NCBI GenBank assembly: GCA_051362555.1
Contig: CM120647.1
Location: 2,108,001 to 2,172,000 of the forward strand
DNA length: 64,000 nucleotides
DNA from: Lingula anatina
Taxonomy: Eukaryota; Animalia; Brachiopoda
Reading direction: 5' to 3'
Shown: piece after piece, positions 3,082 to 54,656 of the stretch
Position numbering within the stretch: position 1 is the first letter of the stretch
Layout of the letters: each line of letters starts with the position of its first letter
Notes under the pieces: generated by a model
What the model saw: only the letters and a program-made list of their open reading frames with translations
Database searches by the model: none
Told to the model about the DNA's origin: nothing
Translations under genes and position numbers: made by a program

Positions 3082-3306
3082 GACTGGGTTCCCACAGATT
3101 TAGATCGATCCATATAGATCGACCTAACTCCCCGGGGGTTCAGCTAAATTGATGTCAGCTTCCGGGAGCCAAGCGCGCACAAAAGTTAATTACTCCCATG
3201 CAGCTTTTAGTAGGCGGGTTAGACATTTAAGCCGGTTAAGCTGACAGCAATCTAGGGAGACTCCCCAGGGGGATAGATCGATCTAAATATCTGTGGGAAT
3301 GGTCTC
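3082..3306. mobile_element. Palindromic MITE family A (PIF/Harbinger, Tourist-like)
   Basis: TTCCCACAGATTTAGATCGATC ... GATCGATCTAAATATCTGTGGGAA inverted ends; homologous to copies at 16318, 23873, 28216, 34681 and 56972. Confidence 0.8.
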
Positions 3307-19339: not shown

Positions 19340-19731
19340 TCACAAGTTGTTTGACGTCTGTGATGCCGAGCTAAAGGTGGACACCTTTCTCACATTTAGA
19401 GTTTGCTGGGTCATCGACTTCACCATTTTCCTCGTGGACGGAGGCTTGTAGCAATAATGAGCGAGGAAGAAGAACAGGGCAGTCAAACACTTGACGCCGA
19501 GGCCGAGGAAGAAGAAGTTCCTCCCCATCAAGGCGCTGTCGTAAATCCAACACGAGCCGTTCTCCGTGCAGTTCTGCTGCCAGAGCTGACACGTACCGTC
19601 AATGATGGCGCCAAACAGGATTGGACCCGGTACCGTGCCTGCAATGTCAAGGTCACATAGTCAGCCTATACATACACACACACACACACACACACAGTAC
19701 CGTGCCTGCAATGTCAAGTTAACATGGGCAG

Positions 19732-19787
<56 letters not shown>

Positions 19788-22700
19788 TATACATAGAACA
19801 TTGTTTGAACATGTTTGTATGTACTGGTATGTACGTAGATATGCATACATACATTTTACACTAGATTATCTTTTGTATCATTTGCTAAAAACAAAGGCAA
19901 CCAAGCCTAAAGTTATATCTTTATACATGTATATGGTGGACGGCTATATTCTAATACAAAATAACAACTAGTACTGAGAATACAATAATTACGGTCGCAT
20001 TTGAAGTATATTATGTGAGATGTGCTACTTTGAGATGCGACAACTTCGTGGTAACTGACAATAATGTGGCTCTCTCCGAATAACAAAAAAAAACGCAAAA
20101 TTCTCTCGAAGAATGAACGAATTTTTATGTTAATTTTAAAAATTGTTACCTAAGAATCTGATGAAAACCCACTGCAATCCAAGACCAAAGGCTCTCTGTC
20201 CGTCAGGAATACACCTGGTAAATATAATATAATATAATATAATATAATATAATATAATATAATATAATATAATATAATATAATATATAGCACCGGTATGA
20301 TATGAGCTGTAACAGTACCGCCATCTATTGCGCGTTTCACCAGGAATACAACTGGTAGAGATATGTGAGGTCACCAGAAAATACATGTATAATCTCATAA
20401 TATCGTCGGCATTGTGACGTCATCTGTTATATTTCGACCATAGAGAGGTTTGAATCTTTCATTTTTTTTTTTTTTTTTTTTTTTTTAGCTTCCAAAGATG
20501 TAAACAAATTGAATGACACATGATTTCGATGTTACTCATCTGGTTATTTGTACAAGCACGAAAAGTTACTTTCATAATGTATTTAATGTGTTTGTTGTCA
20601 TGTTTATATGAACCAAAAAAGACAAACAATAAATGTACGTTATCTAAATTCTTGTTTACTGCACATTTTTCTACTGTCTCATAGAATTTGGTTTTCGTAA
20701 ATTTACCTATGTTACAAGATACGATAAGGCCCATCCCACCCAAAGCATTCCTCTAAGACTAAAACCCTAATGACCGCTTGATTGCAATCATCCACACCGT
20801 ACCTGAGAGTAACAGAGGTGGCCGGGGTAGCCGACATGAACGTAAATAGTATCAGCACCAAAGCAATGGGTAAGAACAGGTACAGCGTCCAACACTCGGC
20901 GGTACAGCGTCCTGTCTTGATGCTGGCCGCAGCCGAGACGTTTGACCCCAGCTCCTCGGCGATACAGCTACAGTCTGTGTACACCTGAAAAATGTGGAGA
21001 AAATGTGACCGTGGACACACCTCACGTATGGGGTATAGTCAGGGTATACTGTATGCTTCTTATGGGAATAATCCAGTGGTTCAGCTTTTTTTCTAATATA
21101 GCATTATCTTTTGAACACGAAACATGTCTTTTAAAGCGGAATTCCAGGATTGAACCGTTTTACAACCACTATAGCTGGTATAAAGTGTAAATGAATTAAT
21201 GTGGAAATTTGACCAAAGTTTCGGACTGTCAAAGTGTGCCAATATTATTAGAAACGTATTCTAGCCGGATGCAGAAAAGAAAATAAAACATTTTTATTTA
21301 TTCCCCGATTTTCATTTCCTGGTTCCTTCCGCAACGCATAAAAACTATTTGCAGTTTTCAGAAAAACATGTCATCAACATCATACGTCAGTGTAAAAACT
21401 CTCTCGGGACAAGTTTGTACAATTTTCAGTAATGAGCATCGGTTTCAATACTTTGAAATACATTTCTAGTTATAATCTAAGATCTAATAAACAGATCTTA
21501 GTTATAACCAATGTGTTACCTTTGATCCGTTGACCAGCGCAGACGACAGACAGCCGGCGTGACAGGGGGTGAAGTACTCCTGGCCATTCAGACAGATCGG
21601 TTCAAAGCTGGAGGTGGTGCACCCGCACCCGGCGTTACACTCTGCTGTGATGTTGTTAACTTGGACGGTGGTGCTGTAATGTTATACAGACAACATTCAA
21701 ACAAACAGAATAAAAAACAAAACAGAAAATAAACTATTGAAACTGGACCTGGAAGGATACAAAAATGGCGCTGACATCACAGGTGTAGAGGTGGAACCGG
21801 TGTGACAGGAATGGTATTCCTAGGAATGGAAGTCCGGGCTCCCATATATTTATATAATTAATTAGTACAGGTTTAGGTTAGTCGGAGTATTGAGGTTATT
21901 ACATGGGACGAGTGCCACCTGTACAAAGTAACAGGGAACCGAGTTGTTAACAGCGGATTTCCATTCCCGTTACACCCGACCCCGTTTCACATAAGACGTC
22001 GAATGCACAACGGAGTTAAGATTTTACACCAAAATTATTTAGCCGACTTTGATCTAGCAGAAGACTTGGGCCACGCTCTTTGTATAAAGTACTATCAAAC
22101 GGATAATTTACAAAATGCCATATTAGCTTTATGGTTAAAACAAGATATTTATTTTTTTTACATAGGTGTCATTGAGCAAAACAAGGATCGGAGTGTGGGA
22201 GATTTTTGAAAAAAATCATGTATGGCGTGATCCTTATAAAAGTGTCAACCTTTTCGAATTCCTTTTTTTTTTTCAGTCCAACAGTATTCTCTCACATTTC
22301 TTTTGGGTGGAGTCTAAATGAGTGCCTCAGGCAATACTGGTACAAAAAGATGTATACAGCAGGCCTTAAATAACTCCCCAAACATTGTCCAAAGTCTACG
22401 ACCCTGCACACAGTACCTGTTTGGGTAAGGTATGTCAACTCCGAATACGGACGGCGTTTCACAACTGATCCAAAACGAGGCAGCCAGCAGTGCTGCCATG
22501 ACGCAGGCTGTCATACTGAGCTTTAACATTCCTTTCACTTTCAGTTTCAATTTGCTGGAGATAATGCCGCCAAGCAGCTGACCACCTGCCGCCCCGGGAA
22601 CGGCCACGAACCCTGGAATAGGTCAAGGTCAGAATAAGCAAACTTGTGTGCACGCTTCTTCACTATGTAAAATCTTCAAATAATGAATAAGGTTTTGAAA

Positions 22701-25051
22701 CAGCAACAATCCCTTCTATGCTTTTCATTTAAGTTGAATATATCTCATGCAAATATTACAGTTGTCAACTTTCTCTTCCTAGGTTCGTAAAATCGTTGGT
22801 ATTCCGCACAAACGACTGCAGAATGTGATGACCAAGGTTACCCCGGCCACCTCCCTGGGGATAACACTGACAGGTAATTAAAGCTTTATTTAACCCTAAT
22901 CTAAGACACTTCTCCCCACCTGTCAACATGGCCGCCCAGCTGGCCGTCAGTCCAAACTGGTTTTGTAAGAGTTTGGGGAGAAATGTAGCGAAGCCACTGG
23001 TGACTAGCCCTTCAGTGCAGCCAGCCAGCGTCACGAACACGAACGTTGGGTTCTTCAGAAGAACCTGAAATATTTCACTTCAAATGATTAAATTTTTTCC
23101 ATGCTTTGTGTTGCGTTATACGACAGATATTTGGATCGATCAATGATAACAGAGAGCTGATCTGATGATTTAAACTTTCTGGTTTTGTTATTAAGCCGTC
23201 ATGTAAGGGTGTATCTAAACTACGCTTGGGCGAGTCTCATGAAATGTACAATATCAACCCATATTATAGGGTTGAGGTGATTTCAATGCAAAATAGAAGC
23301 ACAAAACAATATACTTATTAATCAGATGAAATTAAGTCACATACACTGTGACGTCAAATGAATCTATCTACATACTTTCACAGACTTTTGCATTAAAATA
23401 TTCGGAGTCCAAAGCTGAATATCACAAAATCAAACAAGTTGAAATTTGCACATAAAAGATGACAAAAAGCCACATGTCCACACATGTCTACAACACATTT
23501 CTTCCCTCAGAAGACGTACCTTTGCCGCGGTTGGCATGTCCCTGATTGACTTTCCAAATCCAGGTCGGTTGACTTCGTCTTCGCCGCCATCTTGGTGGGC
23601 CTGGGACTCTCTGGTTAATCGCACCTCCTTGGCGGCTGGAAGTATCAATCACTTCACTGATCACTCCAGAAACTCAGCTGAATGACTTCAGTGCGCTTTA
23701 CTCGGGATTGACAAGAGCACACAATGTACTGGTTAGGAGAAATTCCCAAATCTAAATTTTTAGGCTAGGCGCATAGTTAGGTGTTTAGTGACGTCATAAT
23801 ACTTAGTACACTAGTGTCGTCAGACGCGTTTCATAAAATAGAAGACCAGTATATAAAGGGTGACGTATTTTAGACTGGGTTCCCATGCCTAGATCGATCC
23901 ATCTGGATCGGTCTAAATCCCTGGGGAGTCTCACTAAATTGCTATCAACTAACCGGCTGAAATGTCTGTCAGGCCTACCGAATCAGCTAGGGGGTAAAAT
24001 AATTACCCTCAAGCAGCTATACTAAGCGTGACAGACATTTAAGACGGTTACGTTGATAGCAATTTAGTGAGACTCCCCAGAGAGATGGATCGATCCAAAT
24101 ATCTGTCTGAATGGTCCCTTAATCTACCCTACTGTCATTCAATCAGGAGAACGGGGCGTATCCCCCGTGAACCCCTGACTTACTGGGGAGCTCCCTGGGG
24201 TAAGCACACAGAGCCACGGTCACCGTCCACGCTAAGAAACCAGCCATCACAAACCCCAGCCACCATGCTCCAACCCAGCGAGGATCTTGTGGGGTTATGT
24301 TGACACTGAAACGAACACGTGCACGCACGCACGCACGCAAATACACTGAATTAGTATGAGATGGACAGAAAAACATATGATCGATCAATAAATTTAAGTT
24401 TCATTTAACGTTTCTTTTATGTCATCAGTGATTGAATCAAAAATTATATTCGATAAATTAGATCAAAAAATTTAAATTCTGCAAATAGAGAGATAGCCAA
24501 ATGCCAATTTAAAATGTTTGAATCCTATTATTATCTCCTAGAGTTCTGTACATGTATCAAGGATTACTTAGTATCGTTATCAATAGAGTACTTATATTTC
24601 TCTCTGTCGTATATACATTATTTTTGAAATTATAAATACAAACAAAACTGATATATTAAACTCACTTTTCTACATTAACATTTTCAAAGTCGACGTAGAT
24701 ATTAAGGAACTGGCCTCCGACTATGTATCCAATTGCTGGCCCCAAAGCGGAGAACGCGTACAGAATGCCTGGATATGGGAGAATAGCGAGATAAACATTT
24801 TGGTATATTCAAATTGCAATTTGATGTTATACTATATTATTCTTTTAAAAATTAATAATAATAATAATAATAATGTGAATTTGTTCTAGCACAATTATTT
24901 TACCATAGGACATCAAATCACACGTCACATAAATATGAACTTAAGCTCGTATAAGCAATAATTACCTGCTAATCTATAATAAGGGCTTAACAACCTACAT
25001 ACCCATCTAATATGTAGTAGAGTGAGTGTAAAGCTACAAATCTCTCCCTCC

Positions 25052-25084
<33 letters not shown>

Positions 25085-28000
25085 AGAAAGAGGGAGGCGG
25101 CATCGTGTACTAACCTATGTATATAGGCGACACCTTGGTCTTCACGTTCTCGTCTATAAACACTGTCCCCAGGGAGTACAGTGTGGTCCCGCCCACCCCG
25201 TGCAGCAGCTGTCCCAGGATCAGTACGTACAGGTAGTTCTGGAGGTACGAGTTCTGTGGATTAACGGTACACGCTGTGGAGTTCCCAGTGCCTGCCGGAT
25301 ATTGAATGATAGGTTAATATTGCTGAGTGAGGAAATAATGCTGTGAGGGCCGTGGTCAAGCCCTGAGTTTCAGAGGCTACTTGAGACTAACCTCTCTGCT
25401 ATAAGCACAGCTCAGCCGTTACCAGGGCCATCTGAAACTCTGGTTGACTAAACAGTTTATTCCAACGAAATAATGTGTATAAAACGCGTATTCTAAAATC
25501 AAATTAAGAAAAAAAACCAATGACGAAATGTATCTTTTAAGATTTAGAATAAAACTTTTTTTTAGATTTAAAATTCTATAAATCGTCTGTTGATTAGAAA
25601 TGGTAGCGTCTGCGACAAGTCAGTCAGTATTGAAACCTTGTGCTTTGTAGATAAAACATTTTTAAAAACTCTTTTGAGGCGATTTACTTTTTTTCACGTA
25701 ACAATGTGACAATATAAAAATGCTAGTTCAACTCTGCGTTGACAGCATTGTGTGTGGAAATTAAATCAATGGAGATTATGTCTGCACTTTCCCCGCGTTG
25801 GCTGTCGCCCCCCCCCCCTTTTACCTGTACATGTATATGCAATGGTGCCTCTCAACTGATATAACATTACCTGTACATGTATCTGCAATGGTGTCCCTCA
25901 ACTGATATAACATTACCTGTACACGTATCTGCAATGGTTCCTCACAACTGATATAACATTACCTGTACATGTATCTGCAATGGTTCCTCTCAACTGATAT
26001 AACATTACCTGTACATGTATCTGCAATGGTACCTCTCAACTGATATAACATTACCTGTACATGTATCTGCAATGGTACCTCTCAACTGATATAACATTAC
26101 CTGTACATGTATCTGCAATGGTGCCCCTCAACTGATATAACATTACCTGTACATGTATCTGCAATGGTACCTCTCAGCTGATATAACATTACCTGTACAT
26201 GTATCTGCAATGGTACCTCTCAACTGATATAACATTACCTGTACATGTATCTGCAATGGTACCTCTCAACTGATATAACATTACCTGTACATGTATCTGC
26301 AATGGTACCTCTCAGCTGATATAACATTACCTGTACATGTATCTGCAATGGTACCTCTCAACTGATATAACATTACCTGTACATGTATCTGCAATGGTAC
26401 CTCTCAACTGATATAACATTACCTGTACATGTATCTGCAATGGTGCCCCTCAACTGATATAACATTACCTGTACATGTATCTGCAATGGTTCCTCTCAAC
26501 TGATATAACATTACCTGTACATGTATCTGCAATGGTTCCTCTCAACTGATATAACATTACCTGTACATGTATCTGCAATGGTGCCCCTCAACTGATATAA
26601 CATTACCTGTACATGTATCTGCAATGGTGCCCCTCAACTGATATAACATTACCTGTACAGGTATCTGCAATGGTGCCCCTCAGCTGATACAACCCCGTGG
26701 TGAAATGTGGCATGCTCATCACTAGAGAGCCACACCCCATGATGAACGCTGCTGTCGACAGCAATCTGGAAATATGAACAGTTTATTACTGAATATATCC
26801 GAAAAATATGAGTCTCTGATTTTCCTCAAAATGCTTTGAAAATAATACTTGAAAGTGCTGATTCAAGAGAAAAGTTGGTATCCTTCTTGCCAAAAGGTAC
26901 ATTGCAGTATGTGTTTGAAAGTGACACAGGTATCAAAAGAATAAAATGTTATATAAATGTTGAAATTTGTATGGATGTGACTAAACTAATCAATGAGACA
27001 TGTACATAAATGGAAACATGTAATTAATTTAACGAATGTTGTCCATCAGCTATCACCCTACAGGATAATTCCCGTGGGAGGCACCCTGAGCTTCAGAGAT
27101 AACTTGACACTAACCTCTTCACTATTAGCCTATCTTCATCGTGTCAAGTTACCTCTGACGAAAATAGTTTGACCTAGTTTATATAAGCCAATCGAATCCA
27201 TGTTTCAAAATTTTTCACCAAAGTTTGGTGAAAACGCTGATTGGTTGACCGTCAATCGGCAATCCTCGGCTGATTCCGCAAGCTCCACACTAACAACATA
27301 GTTATTGTCGAGTGCGGAGACATCCGAGTAGTTCCGAGTGCATAACCGTACACAAAGAAAGCATGGAGTATATCGGAATTGAAACCAGAGCAGTTTGATG
27401 CCCTGCATAATTATCTACTGAGGGATGATGTATTTTGCGTGCTGCCCACAGGTTACGGCAAGTCCCTGATATTCAGCCTTATCTTTGATTGGTCCGGATT
27501 TGAACAAAGCGCGCTTTGACTCGTTCGCGTTCATTGGCTAGATCGTTCAATGAGTCATTGAGTGCGGGCTTTAAATTTGATTGGCGGGCGGCGGAGGCAA
27601 TCGAATGTGGTCAGAGGTAACTTGACACGATGAAGATAGGCTATAGAGAAGAGGTTAGTGTCAAGTTATCTCTGAAGCTCAGGGTGGCTGTACGTGGTCG
27701 CGCTTCGCTTGGGAGGGGTCTCTTACATCAATTTTTTTTTACAGAAGAGTGCATGGTATAGGAGCATTTCTTTCTTTTTTTTTTTTTTTTTCATAAAAAT
27801 TTATTTGTTTAAGTTTTCTGCGGTTGAAATCCAAGATCTAATGCATTCTCAAACCAGAATTGCGTTGTGTTGGGCAGTTGCCCTGAAGCCTGGTTTGGTG
27901 GCGGATGAGTGTGGGCACATTGTTCACAAGACAAAAATTCACTGATGTACTTGAATATATTTACGTACCTCGGTTTGTGCGCGTGCGCCCTAAAGTAACT

Positions 28001-28942
28001 AATGAGAATGACGGTGGTCCCCGCCGCAATGTCGTAGGCGCTGGAGACGAGGCCCACGCGAGAACTGGGCAGGTTAAAACGCCTCTCTACAGACGTGGTG
28101 TTCACATTGTTGATGCCATTCACAACAAGACCTGGAAAGAAGGAAAACGAGGATTCATATAATGCACACCACCATCAAGATAAAGATGTATGCAGGCATT
28201 CCATTTACAGCCATAGGGTGCTTTCCCAGAGATTTAGATCGATCTAGAGATTAAGATTTAGATCGACCTAACTCTCTGGGGGTTCACGCTAAATTGCAGT
28301 CAGCCGAGCGGGCACCATAGTTAATTACCCCCTTACAGCTTTTAGTAGGCGGGACAGACGCTTAAGCCGGCCAAGCTGACAGTAATCTAGTGAGACTCCC
28401 CACAGGGATAGATCGATCTAAAAATCTATGGAAATGGGGTGATAGATTAAGCTGGTAAAATACATTTACTATGTCGCAAGGGCACAAAATTGGACTACCT
28501 TGGAATAAGTCCTTGTGATTAGGTCGAAACGTCGTGATCTCCATTTCAAATTAAGATCCAGTATTAGATTTCTCATTATCTCAGCATGATGTGATTGGAT
28601 GAATCGAAATATTAATTTTGATAAATACTAGATTTCTTCGATTCGTGAGAAAAAGAGAATAATTAGAAAAAAAAATCAAAAGAAAAACAAAAAGGTAGTT
28701 TATTCACCTTGTATCGTAGTAAACCAGCACATGAAGACGAGAAAGGCTTTCGGGTTGTTGCACACCTGAAGCCAGCCCGGTCTGCACCCCCTGTAGCCGC
28801 ACCCCGGGGGAAACTCCGGCTCTAGGCGGAACTCGCGGTCAGCTTCGGCTTCTATCGCCTTTTGACGGACGGGATCGTCAATTTCCGTCGACATGTAGCC
28901 ATTATCGCTAGTCCGTTTTAGTTCAAATCCTTTCGAAGGCAT
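19340..28942 (-). CDS. SLCO: Organic anion transporting polypeptide (OATP/SLCO family, SLCO4-like), paralog 1, 689 aa
   Basis: 13 phase-consistent GT-AG exons: 28942-28708, 28131-27969, 26765-26653, 25291-25115, 24768-24666, 24305-24184, 23635-23520, 23064-22920, 22612-22417, 21673-21520, 20984-20803, 20214-20150, 19638-19340 (2070 nt). OATP signature DPRWVGAWWLGF, ERRF..SS..G...S.YD, Kazal-like CNAGCGC..FEPIC..YFTPCHAGC, PGPILFGAIIDGTC..W. Confidence 0.95.
19672..19783. repeat. (CA)n tracts inside a duplicated splice-acceptor segment
   Basis: GTACCGTGCCTGCAATGTCAAG occurs at ~19630 and ~19697, each copy followed by a CA tract. Confidence 0.85.
20221..20286. repeat. (AATAT)n pentanucleotide microsatellite
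   Basis: Directly visible; abuts the acceptor of SLCO exon 12. Confidence 0.95.
21797..21978 (+). mobile_element. MITE family E
   Basis: GGTGTGACAGGAATGG...CCATTCCCGTTACACC; a second copy lies at 62203-62368. Confidence 0.7.
23873..24118. mobile_element. MITE family A (fully palindromic variant), TTA TSD
   Basis: TTA on both flanks; long inverted arms; in SLCO paralog 1 intron 6. Confidence 0.8.
25821..26692 (-). repeat. 46-bp minisatellite, 19 copies, made of the SLCO exon-3 3' end plus GTAA donor
   Basis: Unit TTACCTGTACATGTATCTGCAATGGTACCTCTCAACTGATATAACA starts every 46 bp from 25821 to 26649; the last copy is the real exon end. Confidence 0.95.
27082..27686 (+). mobile_element. Internally deleted TIR transposon with RecQ-like helicase remnant (Academ-like)
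   Basis: ~77-bp TIRs CACCCTGAGCTTCAGAGATAACTTGACACTAACCTCTTC...; 27352-27480 translates TKKAWSISELKPEQFDALHNYLLRDDVFCVLPTGYGKSLIFSL (SF2 Q-motif plus Walker A). Confidence 0.8.
28216..28441. mobile_element. MITE family A, ATA flanks
   Basis: Homologous to 16318-16532; ATA on both sides. Confidence 0.8.
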
Positions 28943-29739
28943 CTTTTGTCTCTCTATATCTACTGTCTGGTTTTGGTGGTGATATTTTCGTGCGTTCCTA
29001 AAGTTTTAATGTGTGCGTTATAATGAAGTAATTCACATCCGGTCAGATATCAGACCGACGGCGTGTCATTATTTATAACTAATATTCCAGGTATTGATTT
29101 GCGCACCTGTATCCATTGACGTGACGTAACGTTGACGTGACGTTGACGTGAAGTAATTTTTGAAAAGAATCACATATAATATCCGTATCCTGCTTAAAAA
29201 TTAATATATGTTTGAAGTCTTCTCATCGCTGTGTGTGTCTTATAGAAATTCTGTTTCACTAGATATCCAGTAGTGTATATCGGAGTGATCAGTCTCCACT
29301 TGGTCTCTGACAATGTTCACTTGGTCTTTTACAATGTTCACGACGTTATGGTATATCGTTTTTTAATCAGATACTTCCACAGATAACCACGCAAGGGTAG
29401 GTTACGCAAGACGTTCAATTCTTGTTAATAATGCACGAGCCATCACGTTCCATTGTTTGAATGTAGGCGACTGTCTTCGTCATATTAGACAATATTAGGC
29501 TTCTGAAAGGATAAAAATAGAACGAAATAAAACAGTTTATAACGTGTATATATAACACATTTAAGTGTACCCGCACAAAAATGCAGTAGTAACGAGGTAG
29601 CATAATAGCATTAGTGCAGCAGTGGTGTGGAATATGTTTGTAGTAGAGATGCAGTATAGCCTACTGTACTTCTACGCAAAAAACACATAGGGATGTACAG
29701 AGAGAGGAGAATTAATGCCAATTAAACTGCTTTTGCAAC

Positions 29740-30280
29740 TCAGACTGCATTTTTATCCAATGTTTCTTTTTTTTTTTTTTTTTTTTTTTTTTGTAAATTT
29801 GAAAATCATAAGAAACATGGTTTTCCCTAAATGATAATTATGGCGGCAGTACCCAAAATAGGGTTTTCTTCAATTTTGATACAATATAACAACGTAATGC
29901 TTAACAGCATAATGGACAGCGATTTTAATAATAAAATATAAGTATCATGGATATTAAAATATGTCTTCAAGTCCATGGAAGTTCAAAGTCACACCTTAAA
30001 AATGTCAATATGTGAAAATTAGAATTTCACAAAAAAATGCGTAACTTCGAGAAAAACCAATCAAATAGACTGGTTTTCTAACTAAAGCTGCATTTTATAC
30101 CTATGTTTCTTTTTTGTAAGTTTGAGAATAGTTAATGACATGGTTTTCTTTTAATGGTCATCATGGCAGCAGTGCCCAAAATAGGATTTTCTTCAATTTT
30201 GATGCAATATTACATTATGCTTAACAGCATAATCACCACCAATCTTTAATTATGCATTGTAGGTAGCATAGATATTTGGT
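29740..30280. repeat. Diverged direct duplication (~200-bp homologous blocks ~340 bp apart)
   Basis: CTGCATTTT...ACATGGTTTT...GGCAG(C)AGT(A/G)CCCAAAATAGG(G/A)TTTTCTTCAATTTTGAT...ATGCTTAACAGCATAAT occurs twice. Confidence 0.75.
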
Positions 30281-30439
30281 ATCGATTACTTGCTTTCCCG
30301 CAGTGCCACTGATGTGAATAGGCTCTTTCACATTTTTTTCTTTCTGTAGTCAGCAATTATTCCCTAGTCTTCCCAATATTCAGTACCAGATCTTACTAGT
30401 TGCTGCCGAAGTTCGTGCACCCCTGCAATACAGTGTATC

Positions 30440-30621
30440 CAGGCCCGTAGCCAGCAATTTCAAATAGGGGGTCTTTTTTCTGAAAAAGTGGACCTTTTAC
30501 CATGAAACCTCAGTGATAGGATAAGATAGATAACATTTTACCCAGAGGAAACCTTTTCCCGGCAAAAGGGGGGTTCTTTCGAACCCCCCGAACCCCCCTC
30601 CCCCCTCCGGCTACGGGCCTG
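30440..30621. mobile_element. MITE family D-related, 5-bp TSD
   Basis: TIR CAGGCCCGTAGCC/GGCTACGGGCCTG; GTATC on both flanks. Confidence 0.85.
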
Positions 30622-32893
30622 GTATCAAATTTAATTTATTTTATACATAGCCGGCAGTTACATTGGCTGAGTTTTCACGGTCTGGCTTATGCATGTACCC
30701 TGAGGAAAATAGGTTATCTCAAGACGCGGGGTGGTGGGGTGTGTGGGGGGGGGGGGGGGGGAGGAGGTGAACTAGGTGCCTTGTCTCTCTCCGGACCCGC
30801 TTATATTGATTCAAGTAAACAGAACTCATTGATAGAAGTTGTAAAGTTAAACTTTAAACCGACGTTATCATCAAAGTGCACAGACGGCAGGTGATATATA
30901 TATTGTACATGTAACCAGGCCAAGGCCTACTCTACGTACTTTGCACTTACGTCACTGTCTGCAGTTTTGAATGGTGATACTGTGGTAAATGGAGGCAAAA
31001 AAAATAGCCATCTCCCCCCCCCCCCCCCCATAGTGCTTAAGGGCCTCATAGTGTACAGAGAAATGTGACATAATTCAGTAAAATATCAGTAAAGCCCAAC
31101 CTTATTTTAGTTAACCGTCAGTTGCCCTGTGGCGACACTGATTTGTAGCAGGTTGGTAAGTGAAATCCAACTCTGTGTTTAAATAACTTCCTTGTGGATG
31201 ACAAAGGGTGGCATATCCCCCCCTCCCCACCACACACGCACGCGCACACACACACGCACACACACACACATACACATAACGCAAACTCACCCGCAGTTCT
31301 TAAAAATATAGCGAGTTTTACCAGCTTTAAAAACGTAACCAAGTGGAGGAAAACAGCAGATAGTATTTACATGTATATAAGTGGAAATTCCACAATCAGC
31401 ATGTTTTGTGACCAATGAATATTTAGTTTAACTCTCTTGGAGAGGGGCGGTCTTTGAAAATGGTTTTCGCCACGTGTCGGTCACCATACCTGTATGCAGA
31501 AAATATAATTATGATAATTATAGTAATATGTAAACAAAAGAGTGACCCTTAACACAGACACGCCCCATGAGTACACGCCGTGTATATCAACGTCCCAAGG
31601 CCGCCTGCACCGAGCCACGGGTTCTGAAGCGCAATAAGAAAACTGACAACGTGCCCCTCGAAGCACGCCGCTAGCGTGTGGGCTAAATACGGGCAACAGC
31701 CACGACCGGACGGGACCCGCGTGACGTCCCTGTTGTAGGAGCTGACCCGGCGGACCCGCTGACCAAGTTGGTCATACAAGTAGCGTGTGGAGAACGTTGA
31801 AGGTCTGCGGAATATTCAGAAAGTTGTACAGAAAAATTACCAGGTACTTTACCTGAACGGATGACTGCCCTGGCAATGACGTTATAGACGTAGATCAGGT
31901 CAATGCCCCGCTACATCTTGTAATATATGGCCCGCGATAACGCTTATCTTACTCGTTTGGAACAAATACGTACCAATTTAGCTCTTTACGGCGGCGTATC
32001 ACGCGCCGCCGCTGACTAAAATACTTAAAAGGTTCTTCATTTTACTTGGAAACGAAAATTGCCTTGAACCTGGTTATGTCGACTATTTGAGTAACCAAAT
32101 TCAGAGATGTGTCACGCTCTTCCCAAGGTTCCCATATATTGATACATACTGTATGTACATGTACAAACACCAGTTGACGTTTTAACGCTTACCTTACCTT
32201 CGGACGAAATCATCTTTCTCTCCGACCTGCTGCGAGATATATCCCCGGATGACATCTCCAAGGGACAAGTAGCTCCACTGATAAAAACTGATAGCAACCA
32301 CAAGGCAGATGCTGCAGGGGGGGGGGGGGGGGGGGTGCAGCGACACGGGCCGTCAATCTTACCGAATCAGAACCGAAAACTACAGTCGATTTTTTGTGTC
32401 TGTGCATGGATGTCGTCTGCCTTTTTACACTTATCAGAACAAAACCTTGCCACCAGTCTTAATGAGAAAGGAAAACATAAATGGGGAAATATTCTGTTGG
32501 AAGTTCAGATTAGTTGTAACAAAGTAGGACCGTCCCTAGATCGTTCCAAACTAGACCATTGTAAACGTGTCCCTGACGGATCTTGTCTCAGGCGACATCA
32601 GTGGTCAGAACATTCTTTGGGTGGGCAAGTAACCGGAGGAGCGAGGCGCAGATATCCTTAATAGTCTGACTTAAATGTCCTTATATTGTGTACAGTTATT
32701 AAAAGGCTGGTTTGATATAGGCTTTTCTGATCGTTTGTTTATTTTTTTCTTTTCTATTTTTTTCTCCTCTCTCTCGTAAAGAAAATATATTGGAGGTAGC
32801 AAATGTAAAATTCAAATGAAAAAATCAAATACAAGACAATGCAAAAAACATACGCTTTAGACTGTAGTTATATGTTGCAGAGTGCTGGCCGGG

Positions 32894-32896
<3 letters not shown>

Positions 32897-32953
<57 letters not shown>
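32897..32953. repeat. (TA)n microsatellite
   Basis: Directly visible. Confidence 0.95.
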
Positions 32954-32958
<5 letters not shown>

Positions 32959-34319
32959 GAACGACAGACCAATTTTTCAGAAGTTTGCACCAGTGAGGGA
33001 GCATTCACATGGTAGATAGATCCGCCCCTTTCACCTATCTCAGAAGATACCTCAATTGACTTATTGCATTGGCTAAGCATTATCTAAAATTTACCTCAAC
33101 AGTTTACTGATTGGCAGCGTACAATAATTACGACGCTTTCCTGAAACTACTGACGGTAGTGGTCTCACTGAACCTCAAAGAAGGAAGTACAACCAGGATT
33201 TCCTGAAGTATATCCTAGCAGCTGAATTCCTTGGCATAGGCTGGGATATAATTTTAATGATATTGATGGTCTATACTACATCAAATACACTGAGAGTGAC
33301 ATAACAGACCATTATATTGCCCCTGGTGGCTTTCTATAAATTATTCTTCAGTTCATTTGCAATCATAAATTTATTTCTCTTATTTGTAGCCAAATCAAGG
33401 ACATCGATGGGAGGTTTCGGCAGAGAAATACAAGCAGCAGTAGTGCACAGAGGAAATTCTGACATTCCAACGGCCACGTATAAACCATGAGTCACACGTG
33501 CCATATACAGCAGAAAACAATTGACCCCTCTTATCATAACCAACAACAACAATAAAGATCACATTATAGAAACGCCTGACATTTAGACACAGTCACACCA
33601 TTGTTTCAATAGTGATAGGAATAACACAAAATGAATACACCAAAAAGATATGTGTAGCGATTGTTAGATAAATGTAAACATGCAAAAATATTTACTCCAA
33701 GGAGTGCTCGCATATATTGAAGACTACGCAATACTGTTGTCGACTTTTTTTTTAGCGTTTGATGCATGTTATATCAAACTCAAAATAATATCATTTAAAT
33801 ATACGTAGAATATAGAATATCACTTTTTTCACTTGCCGAGTTAAGAGTCGAGTTAAGAGTCGAGTTAAGATGTAAAGATGTAAGCGGGCGTTTTCTTTTT
33901 TCATTTTTTTTCCTAGTTTCATCATGTTAAAAAGGTGGATTTTAAATTAACTAAAAAGAACACGGGTTAAATTCAAACAGCAGAACTCTACTGCGCGGTC
34001 TGCTTGAAATGCACCTGCAAATCAAGGCTGATAAGATCAAATCTGGGATAGGGCGCAAGGTGATGACGCGAGGTTTTACCCCCGGAGGGGGGAGGGGGTA
34101 TTAGCAGAGTTTATGAAGGGGATTGTGTACTGCAGTTGCTGTGTGAGCGGGGAGGGCAGCCATGTGAGTATTGGGCACACATGAGATGATGGTTTTGGAT
34201 CACGCAAAAACAAACATTTCGAGATATGCCCTAGTAATATAGATATCAAACTTTAATAACGACCTGATAATAACCGGTCGTTTAGTGTAAGCTATCGAAC
34301 GATCAAGTCTTGCTAGGAG

Positions 34320-35800
34320 TACACAGCGCTGAGCCCCAGTGATAGTCCTGCATCTGTGCCTTTTCTACGCTTCAGCTTATGTGGAACCCTCAGAAGGGTG
34401 CCCCTCCCAAAGTACGCCTGCTGCAACACAAAATTAATGAAGCGTATACGTATGAGTTTGAGTTTTCCCAGTGTAAACACGATAATGGCATCGAGACCAA
34501 TCTCTATTCAAGCATTAATATCCACAGGGCACACATGGCTTGGTATTGGTCTCCTTGTCACAGTCAGCTGGCTGTCCTTGTACACTGGTAGCTGTGGACT
34601 TCTTATCTGGACCAAGTACTTGTGTCTGTACACGGGTCATCCTAGGGACCATCCCCAGACCCTATCGTACTAACTGTGAATCGAACTATCTCCGTGGGGA
34701 TTCTGGCTAAATTGCAATCAATTTAAGCGGCTTAGATGTCTGTCACGCCTTCTGAGGCTGATAATTAACTATCGTTTAGCAGCTTTAGTGGGCGTCCCAG
34801 ACGTCTAAGCAGCTTGGGCTGAAAGCAATTTAGAGAGAAACCCCTGGGAGATGGATCGATCCTGTTAGATCGATCTAGATATGGGAATCCAGTGAGAGTA
34901 CAGGACTGATCAAATGAAGGTGGGGGGGGGGAGGCAGGACCGGCGCAAACCCTCCGTCTGTGTCCTGACTCACAGGGTCGCGGGGATTGTAAATTACGGA
35001 AATTAATTTCCTCACATTCTGGGGGATCGAAAGGTATTATTACGATACTAGGCGCATAGGAATCACTTGTATGTGTATGTGTGCTTAAATAGGGATCAAT
35101 CTCAACCTCGCTTTGTGACTTCATTTTGTTGATTCCTATAAGCATATTGAGAAATAAAACCATCTATTATAAACTTATTTATTTTATATACAACAATAAA
35201 CCCGTAACGGAAATGCCTAAAAAGTGCTGAACATCCATGTTTTATATAAAGCTAACTTATTTACAGTCATCAGTGTTTTATCTCCATATACAGAAAGCAA
35301 CTGGTTTTAAAATATTATTGATTTAAAAGCCAAAGAAGTCTAATCAGGGCACCATTAGCAAGATTCTGGATTCAATTAATTTTACTTCCTAACCTCAAGG
35401 GGGCATTGGATCTAAACTCCCTGATCAGACGCTTTCCACGTATTCATTTTCATTGTGTCTGTGTACGTGTGCGCGTGTGTGTGGGCGCGTGTGGGGTGGC
35501 GGGCGGGGGAGGGGGCAGTCGAGGATTGGCCAAGAAAGATCATTTGGAAGACTGTCAGAAAATATCTCTGGATCGGCCCCTGCCCCGTGCGCCTCTGGTA
35601 GCATTGTAACTACCGGTATTCCTAAGGTGCTTCCCACTCACCTTCGTACACCGGCGTGCCCAGTGGAGGGCGTGAACTCGGTACAGGACCCCGGGGAAGG
35701 GGGTGAGCCAGACGTCAAGATAAAACCATGATAAATGAACACACCTTGAATGTTCCACTTAATCCAATGCTTCACACCTGTCCGCAAACAGACTGCAGTT
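34320..35800 (+). pseudogene. Probable decayed rhodopsin-class GPCR pseudogene
   Basis: Colinear degenerate motifs in shifting frames: TM2-like ALSPSDSPASVPFL, TM3-like KYACC...MSLSFPSVNTIMA then DQSLFKH*, TM4-like LGIGLLVTVSWLS, TM6-like VFLRCFPLTFVH (~35616), TM7-like LNVPLNPMLH (~35746). Interrupted by MITEs. Confidence 0.35.
34681..34893. mobile_element. MITE family A, diverged and left-truncated
   Basis: Right end GATCGATCTAGATATGGGAATCCAGT; internal blocks match the 23873 copy. Confidence 0.65.
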
Positions 35801-36299
35801 TACCCCAGACAGAGCATCACATCAGCGATATCATTTCTACGACGATACTGACACAGATAAACAATGCAGTTGTTAGATGTGCTTCACACAGTCCAAAAGG
35901 ACAAATATGGGGTTGTCTGCATTTATGTTGGGTTGAAACTTTTCAGCGCGCCTCTTCTCTGTGGCTGGTCTGATGACGCCGAGATCATGCCTGCCAGCAT
36001 TCAAGGGCGCTACGTTTCCCCGCCGAGCTCAAGGTCGCTGGACAGGACACACAGTATATCCTGGAGATGACACCAAGGAAGGTCGACCCAGCTTCTGGTG
36101 TAAACGCGCCTTTACTTATATACCCACGTTTTAAAAGTATGAAGTAGTCCGAAAAGTGGACCGTCAAGACGTCAGTCAAGGAGCAGTGTCAATATATCGT
36201 AAACTTTCAGTGTTTACCCGTGCTTTATTGGCCTGTCATGAGCCGCCGACGAACAATATACTGCTTTGTGGACTTAAAGTTTTAAGTCTTTAAATCTAC

Positions 36300-36319
36300 C
36301 TCTCTCTCTCTCTCCTTCC

Positions 36320-36385
<66 letters not shown>

Positions 36386-36388
36386 GCG
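36300..36388. repeat. Compound (CT)n(GT)n(GC)n microsatellite
   Basis: Directly visible. Confidence 0.9.
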
Positions 36389-37449
36389 TCCAGGCCAATT
36401 TCGCACTGCAGTCTGAACATAAAGTCTTTGAAGCCCAAGGACCCAAATAACATTTATTTCGCTTACTGTCCGTAATTTATCTGAGCAAGCTAGGACCCAT
36501 CACACACAGCTAGCTTGCCGAGTTCTGCAGTCAAGCTGGGTTGATGGGTCCTGGAGTCAAGTGAAGAAAAGTGGGGTCTCTAACATGTGGCATTGCATCG
36601 TGTTTTTTTAGTTCGAAAATAGATAGAATGATTGGCGATAGGTACAACTTATTAATTGATATCGAGAAGAATTTTGTAATCATATTCTGTATTCTTTTTT
36701 TCTTAAACTCTAATCACTCCATTTGATTAAACTGTGTCGAGGAGCTTGCTTTGTTTAGTTTTAAAAACACAATTTGTAAAGATTTGCGATAAACGGGATT
36801 CTATCAAATAGCGTCGTTCCCAGCAGTATTTACAGTCTACCCATTAGTATGACGTGAGCGCAGGGAGATAAGTGCTGTGCAAATAGTGTTCTGCTACTTC
36901 ATGAAAAGAAAACTTGGCAGTAAATTTTCGATTTCAGAATTCACGTATACTACCTGAGCTAGTGCCATGATTTTAATCGTCTTATAACGTCTTAAAAGAC
37001 GCTAACAGCAACGAGGAAGAGATTTTTTGCTGGGGGAGGGATTATTTAATAGACACACATTACCCCAGTGCTTGGACATACGTTCATGGCTGGTTGAAAT
37101 CGAATACAGGCTGAGTTGTTCTTCTATAATATAAGTAAACACTGTGTTCGTATTATTTGTTTAATGGCACGAAGAAGCCGTAATACCCAAAACTGATCTT
37201 GTCGACTTGTTCAACTCTCAAGTGGTCGTAAGCCTTGAGAGAAATGATCGTGCTCTTTAAGTTTTTTTCGTATCTTACGATTTTGTATCCAACATATCTA
37301 CACAAACCTCCAAACTGATAAAATCTATATATATATTTCATGTCTATTTATGGAGCAAAGAAAATTTATGGTGTCACCTGCATTCGGCCCGATATTTGCA
37401 CCTTTTTACTCAGAGGCACATAAGCGCTCGCGTTAACACAAATACAACC

Positions 37450-37510
<61 letters not shown>

Positions 37511-38287
37511 ACATACATGAACACACGTACACACAGTTATGTTCATACCACAAATACACATACAAGTAAACATACCCATGCATATACAACATCTGTTTTA
37601 ACACTAGACATTTATCATGACTGTTTAGCTATGTGCTTCCGTATAGTATTTCCAAGTGCACTTTATCAGTAACGCGCACACGCGCAAGCGCGCACGCACA
37701 TGAAGGCAGCAGTGCACGCACACTCATTGACATCACTTTCTTTGTGTCAGGCAGTCGGGTGCCATCCATCCCGTCAACCGATGTAGGACATTTCATTCAC
37801 ATGTTTTGTACATGTATAAAAATAGCTTTTCAGAACAAATATGAACATTTGACATTTTAGAAAGAAGGGCAGTGTTTTGAGATGTCAGTTCAGTTGTTGT
37901 AAATGAGGGAAGTTGGTACTTAATACATTTCCCCTTCACTGCTTCTGAAACTAGTGTTTAGTACAAGAAAATTGACGAAAATTAGACTGATACGTAATCG
38001 TGATTACTTCAACTACAAATGTTAAAGGGTTAGGGTCAAATTGGTTTTTTAAAAAAATCTTTTTAAAAGTTAAGCGCCGAAAGCACGTCACGCACGGATG
38101 ATCTGTTAAAAGATATGCCATGCGTCATTTCGCGTTAAGAAAATAAACAGAAGAACAGAACAGAAACATTCTGATGTGAAAACCTTGAATATTGGACGAA
38201 ACAAAGTGCGAAGAAAGAAATGACATAATGACCTTTTTTAGGAACAATGCGGATTGCTGCCACTCGGTACAAGACATCACGCAACAT

Positions 38288-38454
38288 TAGTGGTGGTTCC
38301 AGAGATATTTTCTGATAGTCTTTCAAATTATCTTTGTTGATCCATCCTCCATTTTTGATCGTCTTCCAACAGGACAAATTAGATATCTGTCAATGTAAAC
38401 TTGAAAATCTGACCGTCTTCTGGAAGACCCAGAAGACGACCTAACCCGCCCCTG
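38288..38454 (+). mobile_element. MITE family D
   Basis: Homologous to 4683-4846. Confidence 0.75.
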
Positions 38455-39899
38455 TATGCATATTCTGTGTGTTGGCTTGTTGATTGCAAATTTCCTCTCC
38501 TTGCACTTTACTTTCTAATTCACAGTATTTCGTTAGATACAGTGCAATACGAACATATCACAATTCGCTGGGGGTGCAGTTACCAATACATGTGCTACCG
38601 TGCGAGAATGTGCGTGACTATCAAAGCTGACATGTCTCTCTTTAAAAAAGACACCTACCGTCACGTGTCCTCCCAGACACCTGTTGTTCTCCAGACACAC
38701 GTGTCGCAGTGGTCCACCGTCCTTTATCTATCGCCTGTCCTTGTGTAGTGCCACAGGGATCCAGAACGACGTCTTGTCGTCACTACGTATTACACAGTAC
38801 TACGTTGACAACAACAGCTGGATATACTCACACTCCGAACGCAGCACAGAGTTGTATATATGTACAACATACATGTATGCCGGTGACGGGACTCGGTCGC
38901 CTTAGTTTCTCTGGCGTTAAGAGATATCAAGTCCTTCCTTCATCTACTTGTCACATACATTGTAGCCGTCTGCTACATAATTTACTTCCCTTCATTTATG
39001 AATTCAGAAGCTACCAGAGCTGAGTTTAGCACATCTAAACGACTGTATTCCTTCGGCAATGGACACATAAGTGCACGAACGTTGTTTATTGAGTAAATTT
39101 AAATCTGTTTGCTGCGACACTCTTAATTTAAACCCAGGCGGCGCAGGATTTGGCTCAAGTATCAGCAACGGTATATATTTACTCACCTCAGCAGTGAATG
39201 ACTAGCTGTCATTATCAAGGATTCGTTTGAAAATGTTCAATTTGCTCAACAATCTGTATCACAGTGTAAGCACAGTCCTTTTCAAATGTGCTTGAAGACA
39301 AATTAGCGTTTTTTTTTTGTTTTTTTTTTACAACCCAAGCCGTGGGCCTGCTAAGCAAAGCGAACTAAGCGTTAGATATAGAACAACCTGTAAATTTGAT
39401 AACGTATTAAACTAGGAGTTTATTTTCTGTCAAAAGGCGGGCTTATGTTACAGTTGACAATAATCCATATTGCATTGCAACTGGTGTACGTGTCATTTCA
39501 AATCATCCAGGTAATGTATAAATGGTAGGCAGCTCTTATCTTTTTTTTTCTGCGTGTATCAGAAATAAAACGGTTCTACGTGGCACATGAACTCCTTTTG
39601 GGTCCATCATTTTGATGAAAACATATAGGTTTATTTTGTTTTTATGTTGCTTTAACCAAAGAGATAAAAAGAGCTCTTGCTTTTAACGGATGTGATATGA
39701 GCGTTTACTTATTAGACCACCCCACACAAGGGACACGTGAGAAAAGAAGCAACCCAAACACTCTTTTCCGTCCTGTTATTTGTGCCTTTCTGTCCCCGCC
39801 ATGAGTGAGTGTAATTCGACCATCTGATACGTGTTTGTGCTGGAGTAAATAGTTTTATCTTACGTCCTCACAATCATCTCACAAATGAAAATTCCCTTG

Positions 39900-39903
<4 letters not shown>

Positions 39904-39955
<52 letters not shown>
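39904..39955. repeat. (AT)n microsatellite
   Basis: Directly visible. Confidence 0.95.
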
Positions 39956-39957
<2 letters not shown>

Positions 39958-40426
39958 AATTTACTTCTTTTGATATTACCTGCACCATTTTTGTACATCA
40001 ATGTCTAGACAGCGTTGTACAAATTCATTTTAATCTTAATCTCCAAAAAACGTTTCTTCATCACCAACCCCTTGGTTGAACCATACTGTTCCTAAGATTT
40101 AAGATTAAAACATTTCCTTGGCCTCAACGTTCCCTTCTAATTCTGTAAAATCACACTGCAGCACATTGCATATAATTCTAATATATTTTAAACAACTTTA
40201 TTTTAAACAACTTCGGCTGCCTATACTTATACATGTGATCTTGACGTGCGTTTGACCAGCTCACCTAATGCTGCAGTATTCCGTGTGTTTATAAGGTTTA
40301 ACAACATGTAATGATGTATCATCATAGATCTCATTTCTAGGCGTTTCTATGCGTTGGCCCTATTGCATATTTGCCTCCCTCACCCCCCCCACCCCCCCCC
40401 ACCCCCCCCCCCCACCCCCGGGAACC

Positions 40427-40560
40427 TACCCTCTATCAGGGCTGCAGTTATTATTATGTGGTAATTTTCGGCTGACTTCAACCCAAAATGACCATCTATC
40501 TAGCTAGAGATATATCTGTGAATATCTGTAAAAATCTTCCAGTCGCCCTGGTAGAGGGTA
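40427..40560. mobile_element. MITE family B, diverged
   Basis: TACCCTCTATCAGGG ... GTCGCCCTGGTAGAGGGTA; TSD not preserved; another solo end near 41060-41090. Confidence 0.7.
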
Positions 40561-41859
40561 GAGAATAACCATGAATTCAACCAAATACACATCTGTGAAT
40601 GTGTAGTGAAAATCAATGTCGGTTACCCAAAAATTACTGACCGATTTGGCAGAATATATACATGTATTATCCAATACTCAAGTTACTCTACCTGTCTCAA
40701 AAAGGAATTGCTTAGTTGGCTCTACGAGCCTCTCTTCAATTATTAATCTCATTATGTTGCAATTTAAATTTTATATTTACTTAAGGTGTTCACAGGGTAA
40801 ACCAACATTAGGAGGTTTGATTTCATCGCTTAGATATCTGGTGAAAACAGATAAGTCACTCTGTCCGAACAATTCAAATATAATTAAGTTATTTTCAATC
40901 TGAATATTTAGCGTACGACGATGTAATCAATTAAAAAGTGTCATAGTACAACATCTCTTATGTGTGAGTGTGTGAGCGAGTGCTATTCCCTTCTTTCTTT
41001 TTGTATTTTCATGTATTCGTGATGTATTGTGTCACTAAAAGATATAAAAAAGGAAAGAAAAAATCCATCTGTGGCCCTGGTAGAGGGTTACCCCCCCCCC
41101 CCTTCCTCTGGTCATCTGTTTTTAGCACTGTGCAAGGCAAACCTTGTCACATACGGGATAACTCTGTGAAAGTTGCAGCACACACGAATGAAATACTCTT
41201 AGTATAGCCTTCCCGGATTATTTTAAAAAGGAATTATAGACATTTTTGTTAAATTATAACTGAAATTTTATGACTCTAAAATGTTTTATAAACATTAATG
41301 GGCTTTTTTAATTAATGAAATAACGCGTACGGACTTTTAATTCTGCATAATTTGCATGAAATTTTCTTTTCCTTTCTTTTTCTTATCTTTTCATTGTAAA
41401 GTATATTGAACATAGTCGGATTTAACACTTTAAGTAAACAATAAGTGACTATATTCTAAGCAAAGGCACAAGAAAATGGATGTGGATGAAATAATGAGTC
41501 CATGTTGCCACGGTGGAATCGAAACTGGAATACATTTCTTCTCGTGTGTCTTTCGTACCTAAGATTAAAATAGGAACGGGTTATTTGTAATTGCAATATG
41601 AACAGAATGAATATATATTTTGAGAATAATGGACACAAAAGAAACTTTTGTGTTATGCAAAACTGTTTAATTTTTGATAAATGTAAAACAAGATTAGAGC
41701 TTCCAACTTTGGACATACAGTAGAGGTACTTGTAGAAAATATTTATACTGTGACTGTCATGATTTCAATGTGTCACGCGCACTTGTTATTTATTGTTAAT
41801 TGTAACAATTAAAATGCAAACTAATATCAATTGTAATACAAGGACCGGGGCCTATTTAA

Positions 41860-41904
<45 letters not shown>

Positions 41905-42690
41905 TGTGGGTCTGCCGTGCTATGATGAGGGCTAATGTGATTTGCAATGGCGCCTCTCTGAGAAATTACTACCAACACTTATTTTCTGGTTTCTGTGCAC
42001 TGGAGAATTTTTATTGTGCACACCCGGACTCCATACATGTAGTTGAAGTACCTAATGGTAATAATACTTTATTCCAAAATGTTGTTATGATTTACTAAAT
42101 AAGTAATTATGAAAATGAAATATTTTGTTTTAAAACTATAACACTGTCGTGTTATATAACCTTCCGTCCGAGAAGAGTTTTGCTCCGTCCAAATCAATAA
42201 CGAAGAGTAAAAGTAATAATACGTTTATACTACTAGGTTTTATTTCCCTCAGAAAGACTTTTCATGAAGAGGAGATGGTAAATGAAAAGAATAGAGGTCA
42301 TTACACTAGACTTCGTTTGCATGACAGTCACCGCTTTCTATTCTGTCCAAATCCGGTAATTCTTCATCGCTCCTGCTATCTGGGCGGCGTTGCGTTGGTT
42401 GTGTGTGTTTGTTGGTTGAGTGTTCTTTCCGACGGTGGCTGGGTCGCTATCTACTTCTACTACGGGGTGTTTACAGGGGGTTGCGGGGGTCGTGGCGGAC
42501 GCACCCTAGTTGGTAGATTTAGCACCTGGTTTTGATGGCACCTGGTTTTGAGGATGAGACAAAGTATCTTCCACGTCTTTGTGTATTAAGTATAAAGTAA
42601 TAAAGAGTCTGTTCTCCACAAGAGATCGGTTCGCAAGTCTTTGATTATCATGCCAATAGGTGAACCGGTGGTAGTATATTTACAAGGACG

Positions 42691-43014
42691 TTATGCATAG
42701 GAGCGTCTATCTTCCCACCTCCTGGGCGAGCATACCCCCTCCCTTCTAGACTATATATTATACATAGGAGCGTCCATCTTCCCACCTCCCTGGCGAGCAT
42801 ACCCCCTCCCTTCTAGACTATATATTATACATAGGAGCGTCCATCTTCCCACCTCCCTGGCGAGCACACCCCCTCCCCTCTAGACTATATATTATACATA
42901 GGAGCGTCCATCTTCCCACCTCCCTGGCGAGCACACCCCCTCCCCTCTAGACTATATATTATACATAGGAGCGTCCATCTTCCCACCTCCCTGGCGAGCA
43001 CACCCCCTCCCCTC
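42691..43014 (-). repeat. 67-bp tandem repeat (~4.8 copies) of the fucosyltransferase C-terminal codons and stop
   Basis: CATAGGAGCG recurs at 42696, 42763, 42830, 42897 and 42964. Confidence 0.95.

Positions 43015-54623: not shown

Positions 54624-54656
<33 letters not shown>

What the first reader, a model, noticed from the sequence alone, without database searches (positions are those of the whole stretch)
19630..43014. Recurrent tandem duplication anchored on coding-exon boundaries (donor, acceptor, stop codon)
Seen: three separate repeats in 64 kb straddle a CDS edge. They are the SLCO exon-3 donor (46 bp x19), the SLCO last-exon acceptor (67-bp period x2) and the fucosyltransferase stop (67 bp x~5). 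No comparably homogeneous minisatellite was noticed away from exon edges. In the two larger arrays the copies farthest from the coding copy are the most diverged. Inference: a lineage-specific process, or a survival bias, produces exon-edge repeats, which could feed intron gain, microexon birth or alternative termini.
Basis: partly seen in the sequence, partly recalled or inferred. Interest (0 to 1): 0.7.

Follow-up and report, generated by a model that had tools for sequence, protein, structure and literature searches.

The report
Exon-edge minisatellites in brachiopod Lingula
In a lamp-shell (Lingula) genome, short stretches at the ends of three protein-coding exons have been copied head-to-tail into neighbouring non-coding DNA; the genes stay intact, and the copies are likely harmless drifting repeats of a kind already described in lancelets and humans.

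Summary
The three repeats are real and each sits at a coding edge. A 46-bp x19 array copies the exon-3 donor of an intact 689-aa SLCO4C1-like gene (685/689 identical to Lingula anatina XP_013409397). A 67-bp x2 duplication copies its last acceptor. A 67-bp x4.8 array copies the last 56 coding bases of a fucosyltransferase, stop included. The two splice-site arrays match the amphioxus 'mirage' minisatellites and the human F7 intron-7 VNTR, and earlier notes of this scan report the same on other DNA (annelid, urchin, abalone, shark, camelid). So the process is not lineage-specific. Edge enrichment in this window is suggestive only: P=0.0003 (3 of 4 arrays with period >=30) to P=0.08 (3 of 12 local duplications), in one window chosen after the fact. 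The divergence gradient holds for the stop array but not the donor array, where the coding copy is the outlier. All 18 decoy donors and the decoy acceptor give early stops; only 12- or 24-nt microexons keep the frame. No intron gain or new terminus was seen. RNA was too shallow to test splice choice.

The parts
19340..28942 (-). SLCO4C1-like (OATP) transporter gene A, 13 coding exons, 689 aa, intact; exons 28708-28942, 27969-28131, 26653-26765, 25115-25291, 24666-24768, 24184-24305, 23520-23635, 22920-23064, 22417-22612, 21520-21673, 20803-20984, 20150-20214, 19340-19638
   Evidence: All 12 introns GT-AG, one stop; 685/689 identical to L. anatina P0127 = XP_013409397.1; RNA run X17 covers the bins of exons 1-3
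19630..19783 (-). Array A: two-copy 67-bp duplication of the intron-12 acceptor; unit = (TG)n tract + about 28 nt intron end + 9 nt of exon 13; real acceptor at 19638, decoy at 19705
   Evidence: use of the decoy gives a stop at residue 608
25821..26694 (-). Array B: 46-bp x19 mirage-type minisatellite; unit = last 42 nt of exon 3 + GTAA of the donor; real donor at 26653 and 18 decoy donors in intron 3
   Evidence: unit appears multi-copy in DNA run X5 as well
42959..44594 (-). Alpha-1,3-fucosyltransferase (FucT-A-like) gene, 2 coding exons (43804-44594, 42959-43295), 375 aa, intact
   Evidence: first exon 94% identical to L. anatina P0001
42691..43014 (-). Array C: 67-bp x4.8; unit = last 56 coding nt including TAA + 11-nt spacer; four extra copies downstream of the stop; a four-G-tract (G-quadruplex-type) pattern in 4 of 5 copies
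11673..11788 (.). Control: 32-bp x3.6 T-rich array, 7.6 kb from any annotated CDS edge

Best explanation
These are minisatellites copied from the ends of intact coding exons (two spanning a splice site, one ending at a stop codon) that likely arose by local duplication, likely grew by slippage or unequal exchange, and are likely tolerated because only the copy joined to the exon would be used. Shown: the anatomy; intact genes; decoy sites lead to premature stops; the intronic copies of array B are more like each other than like the coding copy (three columns fixed in all 18 copies); end copies carry private variants. Inferred: (i) separate founding events with different local triggers, namely a (TG)n tract in A, an end-joining-type spacer and a G4-type motif in C, and none evident in B; (ii) concerted evolution among the non-coding copies while selection holds the coding copy; (iii) exon-proximal splice-site choice as shown for human F7, with nonsense-mediated decay removing slips; (iv) a modest excess at edges because an array anchored in a selected exon end cannot be removed by one deletion and so lasts longer.
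For: Array anatomy. Intact 689-aa model with the same exon 3/4 and 12/13 junctions as the annotated L. anatina protein. 18 of 18 decoy donors and the decoy acceptor truncate the protein. In DNA run X5, summed contig depth is 296 in the bin holding two units against 23-66 in single-copy bins. A second L. anatina model, P0121, is 'partial' and starts at residue 165, inside the repeat unit. Amphioxus mirages and the F7 VNTR show the same layout with normal splicing. Edge excess over a viability-conditioned null.
Against: Splice-site choice was not measured: X17 depth is 1-4 and no exon junction rows were listed; X11 and X14 show no exon coverage. Length variation between individuals was not measured, and contig depth is not a copy number. 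Arrays A and C have no read test. Enrichment falls to P=0.08 (P=0.24 for splice sites only) with the looser duplication set. The longer-survival step is untested. No fold-energy signal for the units (z between -1.9 and +1.2).
Confidence: 0.65

Rival explanations
1. There is no real edge bias: ordinary minisatellites fell on edges by chance, and this window was singled out because they did.
For: 9 of 12 local duplications are off-edge, P=0.08; splice-only P=0.24. One window, chosen after the fact. Array A is weak. The three arrays have unlike anatomies.
Against: 3 of 4 arrays with period >=30 are on edges (P=0.0003), and both arrays with 4+ copies are (P=0.002). Repeated reports in amphioxus genes.
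Confidence: 0.2
2. A mutational process targets exon and CDS edges (for example transcription- or splicing-coupled breaks, R-loops or nucleosome borders), so founding duplications arise there preferentially.
For: Excess over a null that already removes lethal placements. Array B takes only 4 intron bases and array C ends exactly at the stop.
Against: A stop codon has no splicing or chromatin mark of its own (general knowledge). The anatomies differ. SLCO gene B (9 coding exons) and the GPCR have no edge repeat. No direct test.
Confidence: 0.1
3. The arrays are functional: decoy donors tune SLCO level through nonsense-mediated decay, or supply an in-frame 12-nt microexon or a store of C-terminal variants.
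For: 17 decoys have the same 9-nt donor as the real site; 12- and 24-nt microexons would keep the frame. Proximal copies of array C are identical to the coding end.
Against: The microexon acceptors are pyrimidine-poor (0.35-0.47 against 0.47-0.94 for real acceptors). The annotated protein lacks the insert. X17 shows no excess depth in the array bin (very few reads). Mirages and F7 pseudo-sites are reported silent.
Confidence: 0.04
4. The arrays are an assembly artefact.
For: No long read spanning an array was examined; A and C are untested.
Against: Copies carry interspersed variants (9 variable columns in B, 6 in C), and unit B has raised depth in another sample.
Confidence: 0.01

Closest known systems
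Amphioxus 'mirage' minisatellites (Adh3, globins BflGb6/BflGb9, troponin C, PGBD5); PMC3087553 and PMC3902484, passages read; the original Adh paper (PMC117041) was not held and is known to me only through PMC3087553 and recall
   Same: The unit spans an exon-intron boundary, on either the donor or the acceptor side. Unit sizes (46, 67 bp) fall in the 10-72 bp range given for Adh3. Splice signals are repeated, the gene is intact, inner copies are homogenised and border copies are left out.
   Different: Host is a brachiopod. Length instability and normal splicing were shown in amphioxus but not here. Array C ends at a stop codon, not a splice site.
Human F7 intron 7 37-bp VNTR (PMC1557585; abstract and Discussion read)
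   Same: The first unit holds the exon-donor junction, followed by identical pseudo-donors, as in array B.
   Different: 5-9 copies against 19. Some F7 pseudo-sites keep the frame, while all 18 here give early stops. Use of the upstream site was shown by experiment there and is inferred here.
Intron gain by tandem genomic duplication (Rogers model, as summarised in PMC3087553; PMC4974935 seen in a search listing only)
   Same: Starts from a duplication that includes AG/GT signals.
   Different: Here the introns have unique sequence and a partner splice site outside the repeat, so the repeat sits in an existing intron; no new intron.

Membership tests
Mirage / junction-spanning minisatellite | Head-to-tail repeat whose unit spans an exon-intron boundary | tested here: met
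   Array B (42 nt exon + GTAA) and array A (acceptor + 9 nt exon)
Mirage / junction-spanning minisatellite | Same feature, for array C | tested here: not met
   The unit ends at the stop codon and contains no splice junction of the gene model; it works like a mirage but is a CDS-end variant
Mirage / junction-spanning minisatellite | Duplicated splice signals retained | tested here: met
   18 of 18 extra copies keep CAG|GTAA; the decoy acceptor keeps TTGCAG
Mirage / junction-spanning minisatellite | Normal splicing at the exon-joined copy | tested here: inconclusive
   The annotated L. anatina protein has the normal junctions, but it is a gene model; RNA depth 1-4, no junction rows listed
Mirage / junction-spanning minisatellite | Copy-number variation between alleles or cells | tested here: inconclusive
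Mirage / junction-spanning minisatellite | Concerted evolution with border copies excluded | tested here: met
   B: inner copies 0-2 from consensus, distal three 2-3, coding copy 6; C: 0,0,2,6
Intron gained by tandem duplication | Both splice sites of the intron come from repeat units and the intron is made of the duplicate | tested here: not met
   Intron 3 has about 530 unique bases and its own acceptor at 25291; intron 12 has its own donor at 20150

The most novel reading that the evidence does not exclude
Lingula has a genome-wide, several-fold bias for tandem duplications that end within a few bases of a coding edge, stop codons included, caused by a mutational process that recognises coding edges. 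This would make mirages a general invertebrate source of decoy splice sites and in-frame microexons.
Probability: 0.12. Interest if true: 0.6.

Novelty: new member of a known kind. Interest (0 to 1): 0.27.

Why it matters
As it stands, it extends a known oddity (mirage or F7-type minisatellites) to brachiopods and adds a stop-codon-anchored variant. Its value is as one more data point that such arrays are widespread, and as a natural test of splice-site choice among 19 near-identical donors. It would matter more if a genome-wide count showed a true edge bias and told mutation from retention; the papers I read call the origin of mirages unclear (PMC3087553).

Tried and rejected
Genome-wide test: no genome is held for this window, so only the window was tested. 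Hidden genes: 149 of 154 stop-to-stop ORFs of >=62 aa outside the four genes, plus the GPCR ORF, were scanned against Pfam; only the GPCR passed a cut-off, and two hits were below cut-off. Small or non-coding exons would be missed, so some 'off-edge' repeats could lie on such exons. Sequencing runs: no RNA holder listed among indexed runs. Reads were laid only on 26600-29400, which holds 2 of the 19 units: 1 of 3 RNA runs covered the exons, too thinly for junctions; 25 joints and 534 loose ends were not shown. Arrays A and C and the 11673 array have no read test. Hairpin trigger rejected (6 folds, z -1.9 to +1.2). Dispersed or transposon origin of units B and C rejected within the window (no 14-mer match elsewhere). 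Read-through extension of the fucosyltransferase rejected (second stop after 4 codons). Papers not held: the original mirage paper and Gao and Lynch 2009. Literature searches listed no report of mirages in a brachiopod, but only the top 20 rows were seen and the library lacks most subscription journals. Early exon coordinates were off by a few bases and were corrected.

Full report
Source and genes. The fucosyltransferase exon at 43806-44594 (-) is 94% identical to Lingula anatina FucT-A, with the next hits at 56% or less, so the window is from the brachiopod Lingula. Four intact genes were modelled: SLCO gene A (-; 13 exons, 689 aa, all introns GT-AG), the fucosyltransferase (-; 2 exons, 375 aa), an intronless rhodopsin-family GPCR (-; 48732-49862) and SLCO gene B (+; 9 exons, 52191-61538, open frame). 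Gene A matches the full-length L. anatina protein P0127 at 685 of 689 residues, with identical exon 3/4 and 12/13 junctions. This gives 50 CDS edges and 6234 coding bases.

Observation. TRF returned 74 rows; four arrays have a period of 30 or more, and three of them are the reported ones. Array B (25821-26694) has 19 copies of a unit made of the last 42 nt of exon 3 plus GTAA. The working donor now reads CAG|GTAATG, with its last two bases taken from the next copy, while the likely original intron start (CAG|GTAAAA) sits at the far end. Array A (19630-19783) is two copies of the last acceptor with 9 exon bases; about half of it is (TG)n and the unique part is 33/37 identical. Array C (42691-43014) repeats the last 56 coding bases, ending exactly at the TAA, separated by an 11-nt spacer that differs from the DNA after the last copy and occurs nowhere else in the window. 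So C is a CDS-end duplication, not an exon-boundary one. The spacer may be an end-joining insertion (inference); loss of the original flank by a later deletion is not excluded.

Divergence. In B all 18 copies differ by 4-7, with no significant trend (rho 0.38, p 0.12). Three columns are fixed in all 18 copies against the coding copy, and the three distal copies hold private changes. This is concerted evolution of the non-coding copies with both borders left out, the pattern described for amphioxus BflGb6.

Chance. The null places a unit of the same length at random among positions not wholly inside CDS, so simple survival bias is already counted. Results: 3 of 4 arrays with period >=30, expected 0.18, P=0.0003; 3 of 6 with period >=20, P=0.0008; 3 of 12 local duplications from my own period scan, expected 1.09, P=0.08; splice sites only, 2 of 4 P=0.009 and 2 of 12 P=0.24; gene spans only, 3 of 5 P=0.03. 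The size cut-offs were chosen after seeing the data and the window was selected for this pattern, so the bias is suggested, not shown. No genome was available.

Consequences for the genes. Donor copy 1 gives a stop at residue 196 and copies 2-18 at residue 187. The decoy acceptor gives a stop at residue 608. In-frame options exist only as 12- or 24-nt microexons inside unit B, with pyrimidine-poor acceptors (0.35-0.47; real acceptors 0.47-0.94). Reading through the fucosyltransferase stop meets another stop after three residues. Neither intron is built from the repeat, so there is no intron gain. Four of five copies of C hold a four-G-tract pattern (26 such matches in the window, most in G runs); that it drives instability is inference.

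Reads (stretch 26600-29400, holding 2 of the 19 units; 3 RNA runs and 1 DNA run). RNA run X17 has depth of about 0.3-4 in the bins of exons 1-3 and none in the unique intron bins between them, so gene A is transcribed; X11 and X14 show no exon coverage. No exon junction was listed, so donor choice is untested. The array bin (0.48) is not above the adjacent exon bin (1.58). DNA run X5, from a different sample and study than the best holder, has summed contig depth 296 in the array bin against 23-66 in single-copy bins. This fits an array in that animal too, though the tool warns that such depth is no copy number. A second L. anatina model, P0121, is marked partial and begins at residue 165, inside the unit, as expected if that assembly breaks at the array (inference).

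Mechanism. Most likely (0.65): independent local duplications, growth by slippage or unequal exchange, tolerance because the exon-joined site is used and slips are degraded, and a modest excess at edges because an array anchored in selected sequence persists. Shown: anatomy, intact genes, truncation by decoys, homogenisation. Inferred: founding mechanism, splice choice, decay, retention. Rivals: chance and selection of the window (0.2), edge-targeted mutation (0.1), function (0.04), artefact (0.01).

What is known. Ebner et al. 2010 (PMC3087553; passages) describe 'mirages', tandem repeats spanning exon-intron boundaries in amphioxus Adh3 and globin genes, on both donor and acceptor sides, unstable in length and without splicing defects, and already propose intron gain from them. 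PMC3902484 (passage) adds PGBD5 and troponin C. Borensztajn et al. 2006 (PMC1557585; abstract and Discussion) show for the human F7 37-bp VNTR that only the most upstream of 5-9 identical donors is used. Earlier AI notes of this scan list the same kind in eight other findings (unchecked leads), none in this genome and none on Lingula repeats. Arrays A and B meet the structural tests for mirages; splicing and length variation are inconclusive here; array C works like a mirage but fails the splice-junction test.

Verdict. Real and ordinary in kind: a new member of a known class in a further phylum, with a small stop-codon variant. Interest 0.27.

Noticed in passing
window, throughout: The palindrome TACATGTA occurs 25 times outside array B against 1.8 expected from base composition; one of the fixed changes in array B's intronic copies creates this motif in 17 copies.
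   Followed up: partly
window 28200-28440 (similar at about 3080-3290, 23860-24100, 34680-34900, 56980-57190): Very high-copy element with inverted ends, MITE-like; summed contig depth about 1e6 in X5 and abundant in all three RNA runs.
   Followed up: no
window 27070-27730: A second high-copy element of about 660 bp with long terminal inverted repeats in SLCO intron 2; internally deleted copies are seen in X5 contigs.
   Followed up: no
window 11673-11788: The off-edge 32-bp array reads as donor-like motifs (CAG|GTAAAA, GAG|GTAAAG) on the minus strand; it could lie at an unannotated non-coding exon end.
   Followed up: no
window 52191-52725: SLCO gene B's first modelled exon (535 nt) appears to cover what gene A splits over exons 1-4, so the paralogues differ by about three N-terminal introns; both keep the 65-nt penultimate exon.
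   Followed up: no
window 29232-29400: Trace RNA depth (about 0.5) in X17 upstream of SLCO gene A, over a 21-bp x2 repeat at 29297-29341; possibly a 5'UTR exon.
   Followed up: no
window 42691-43014: All repeat copies encode the window allele's Glu where both annotated L. anatina alleles have Asp, so the array is either young or tracks the coding copy; not polarised, since paralogue P0067 also has Glu.
   Followed up: partly
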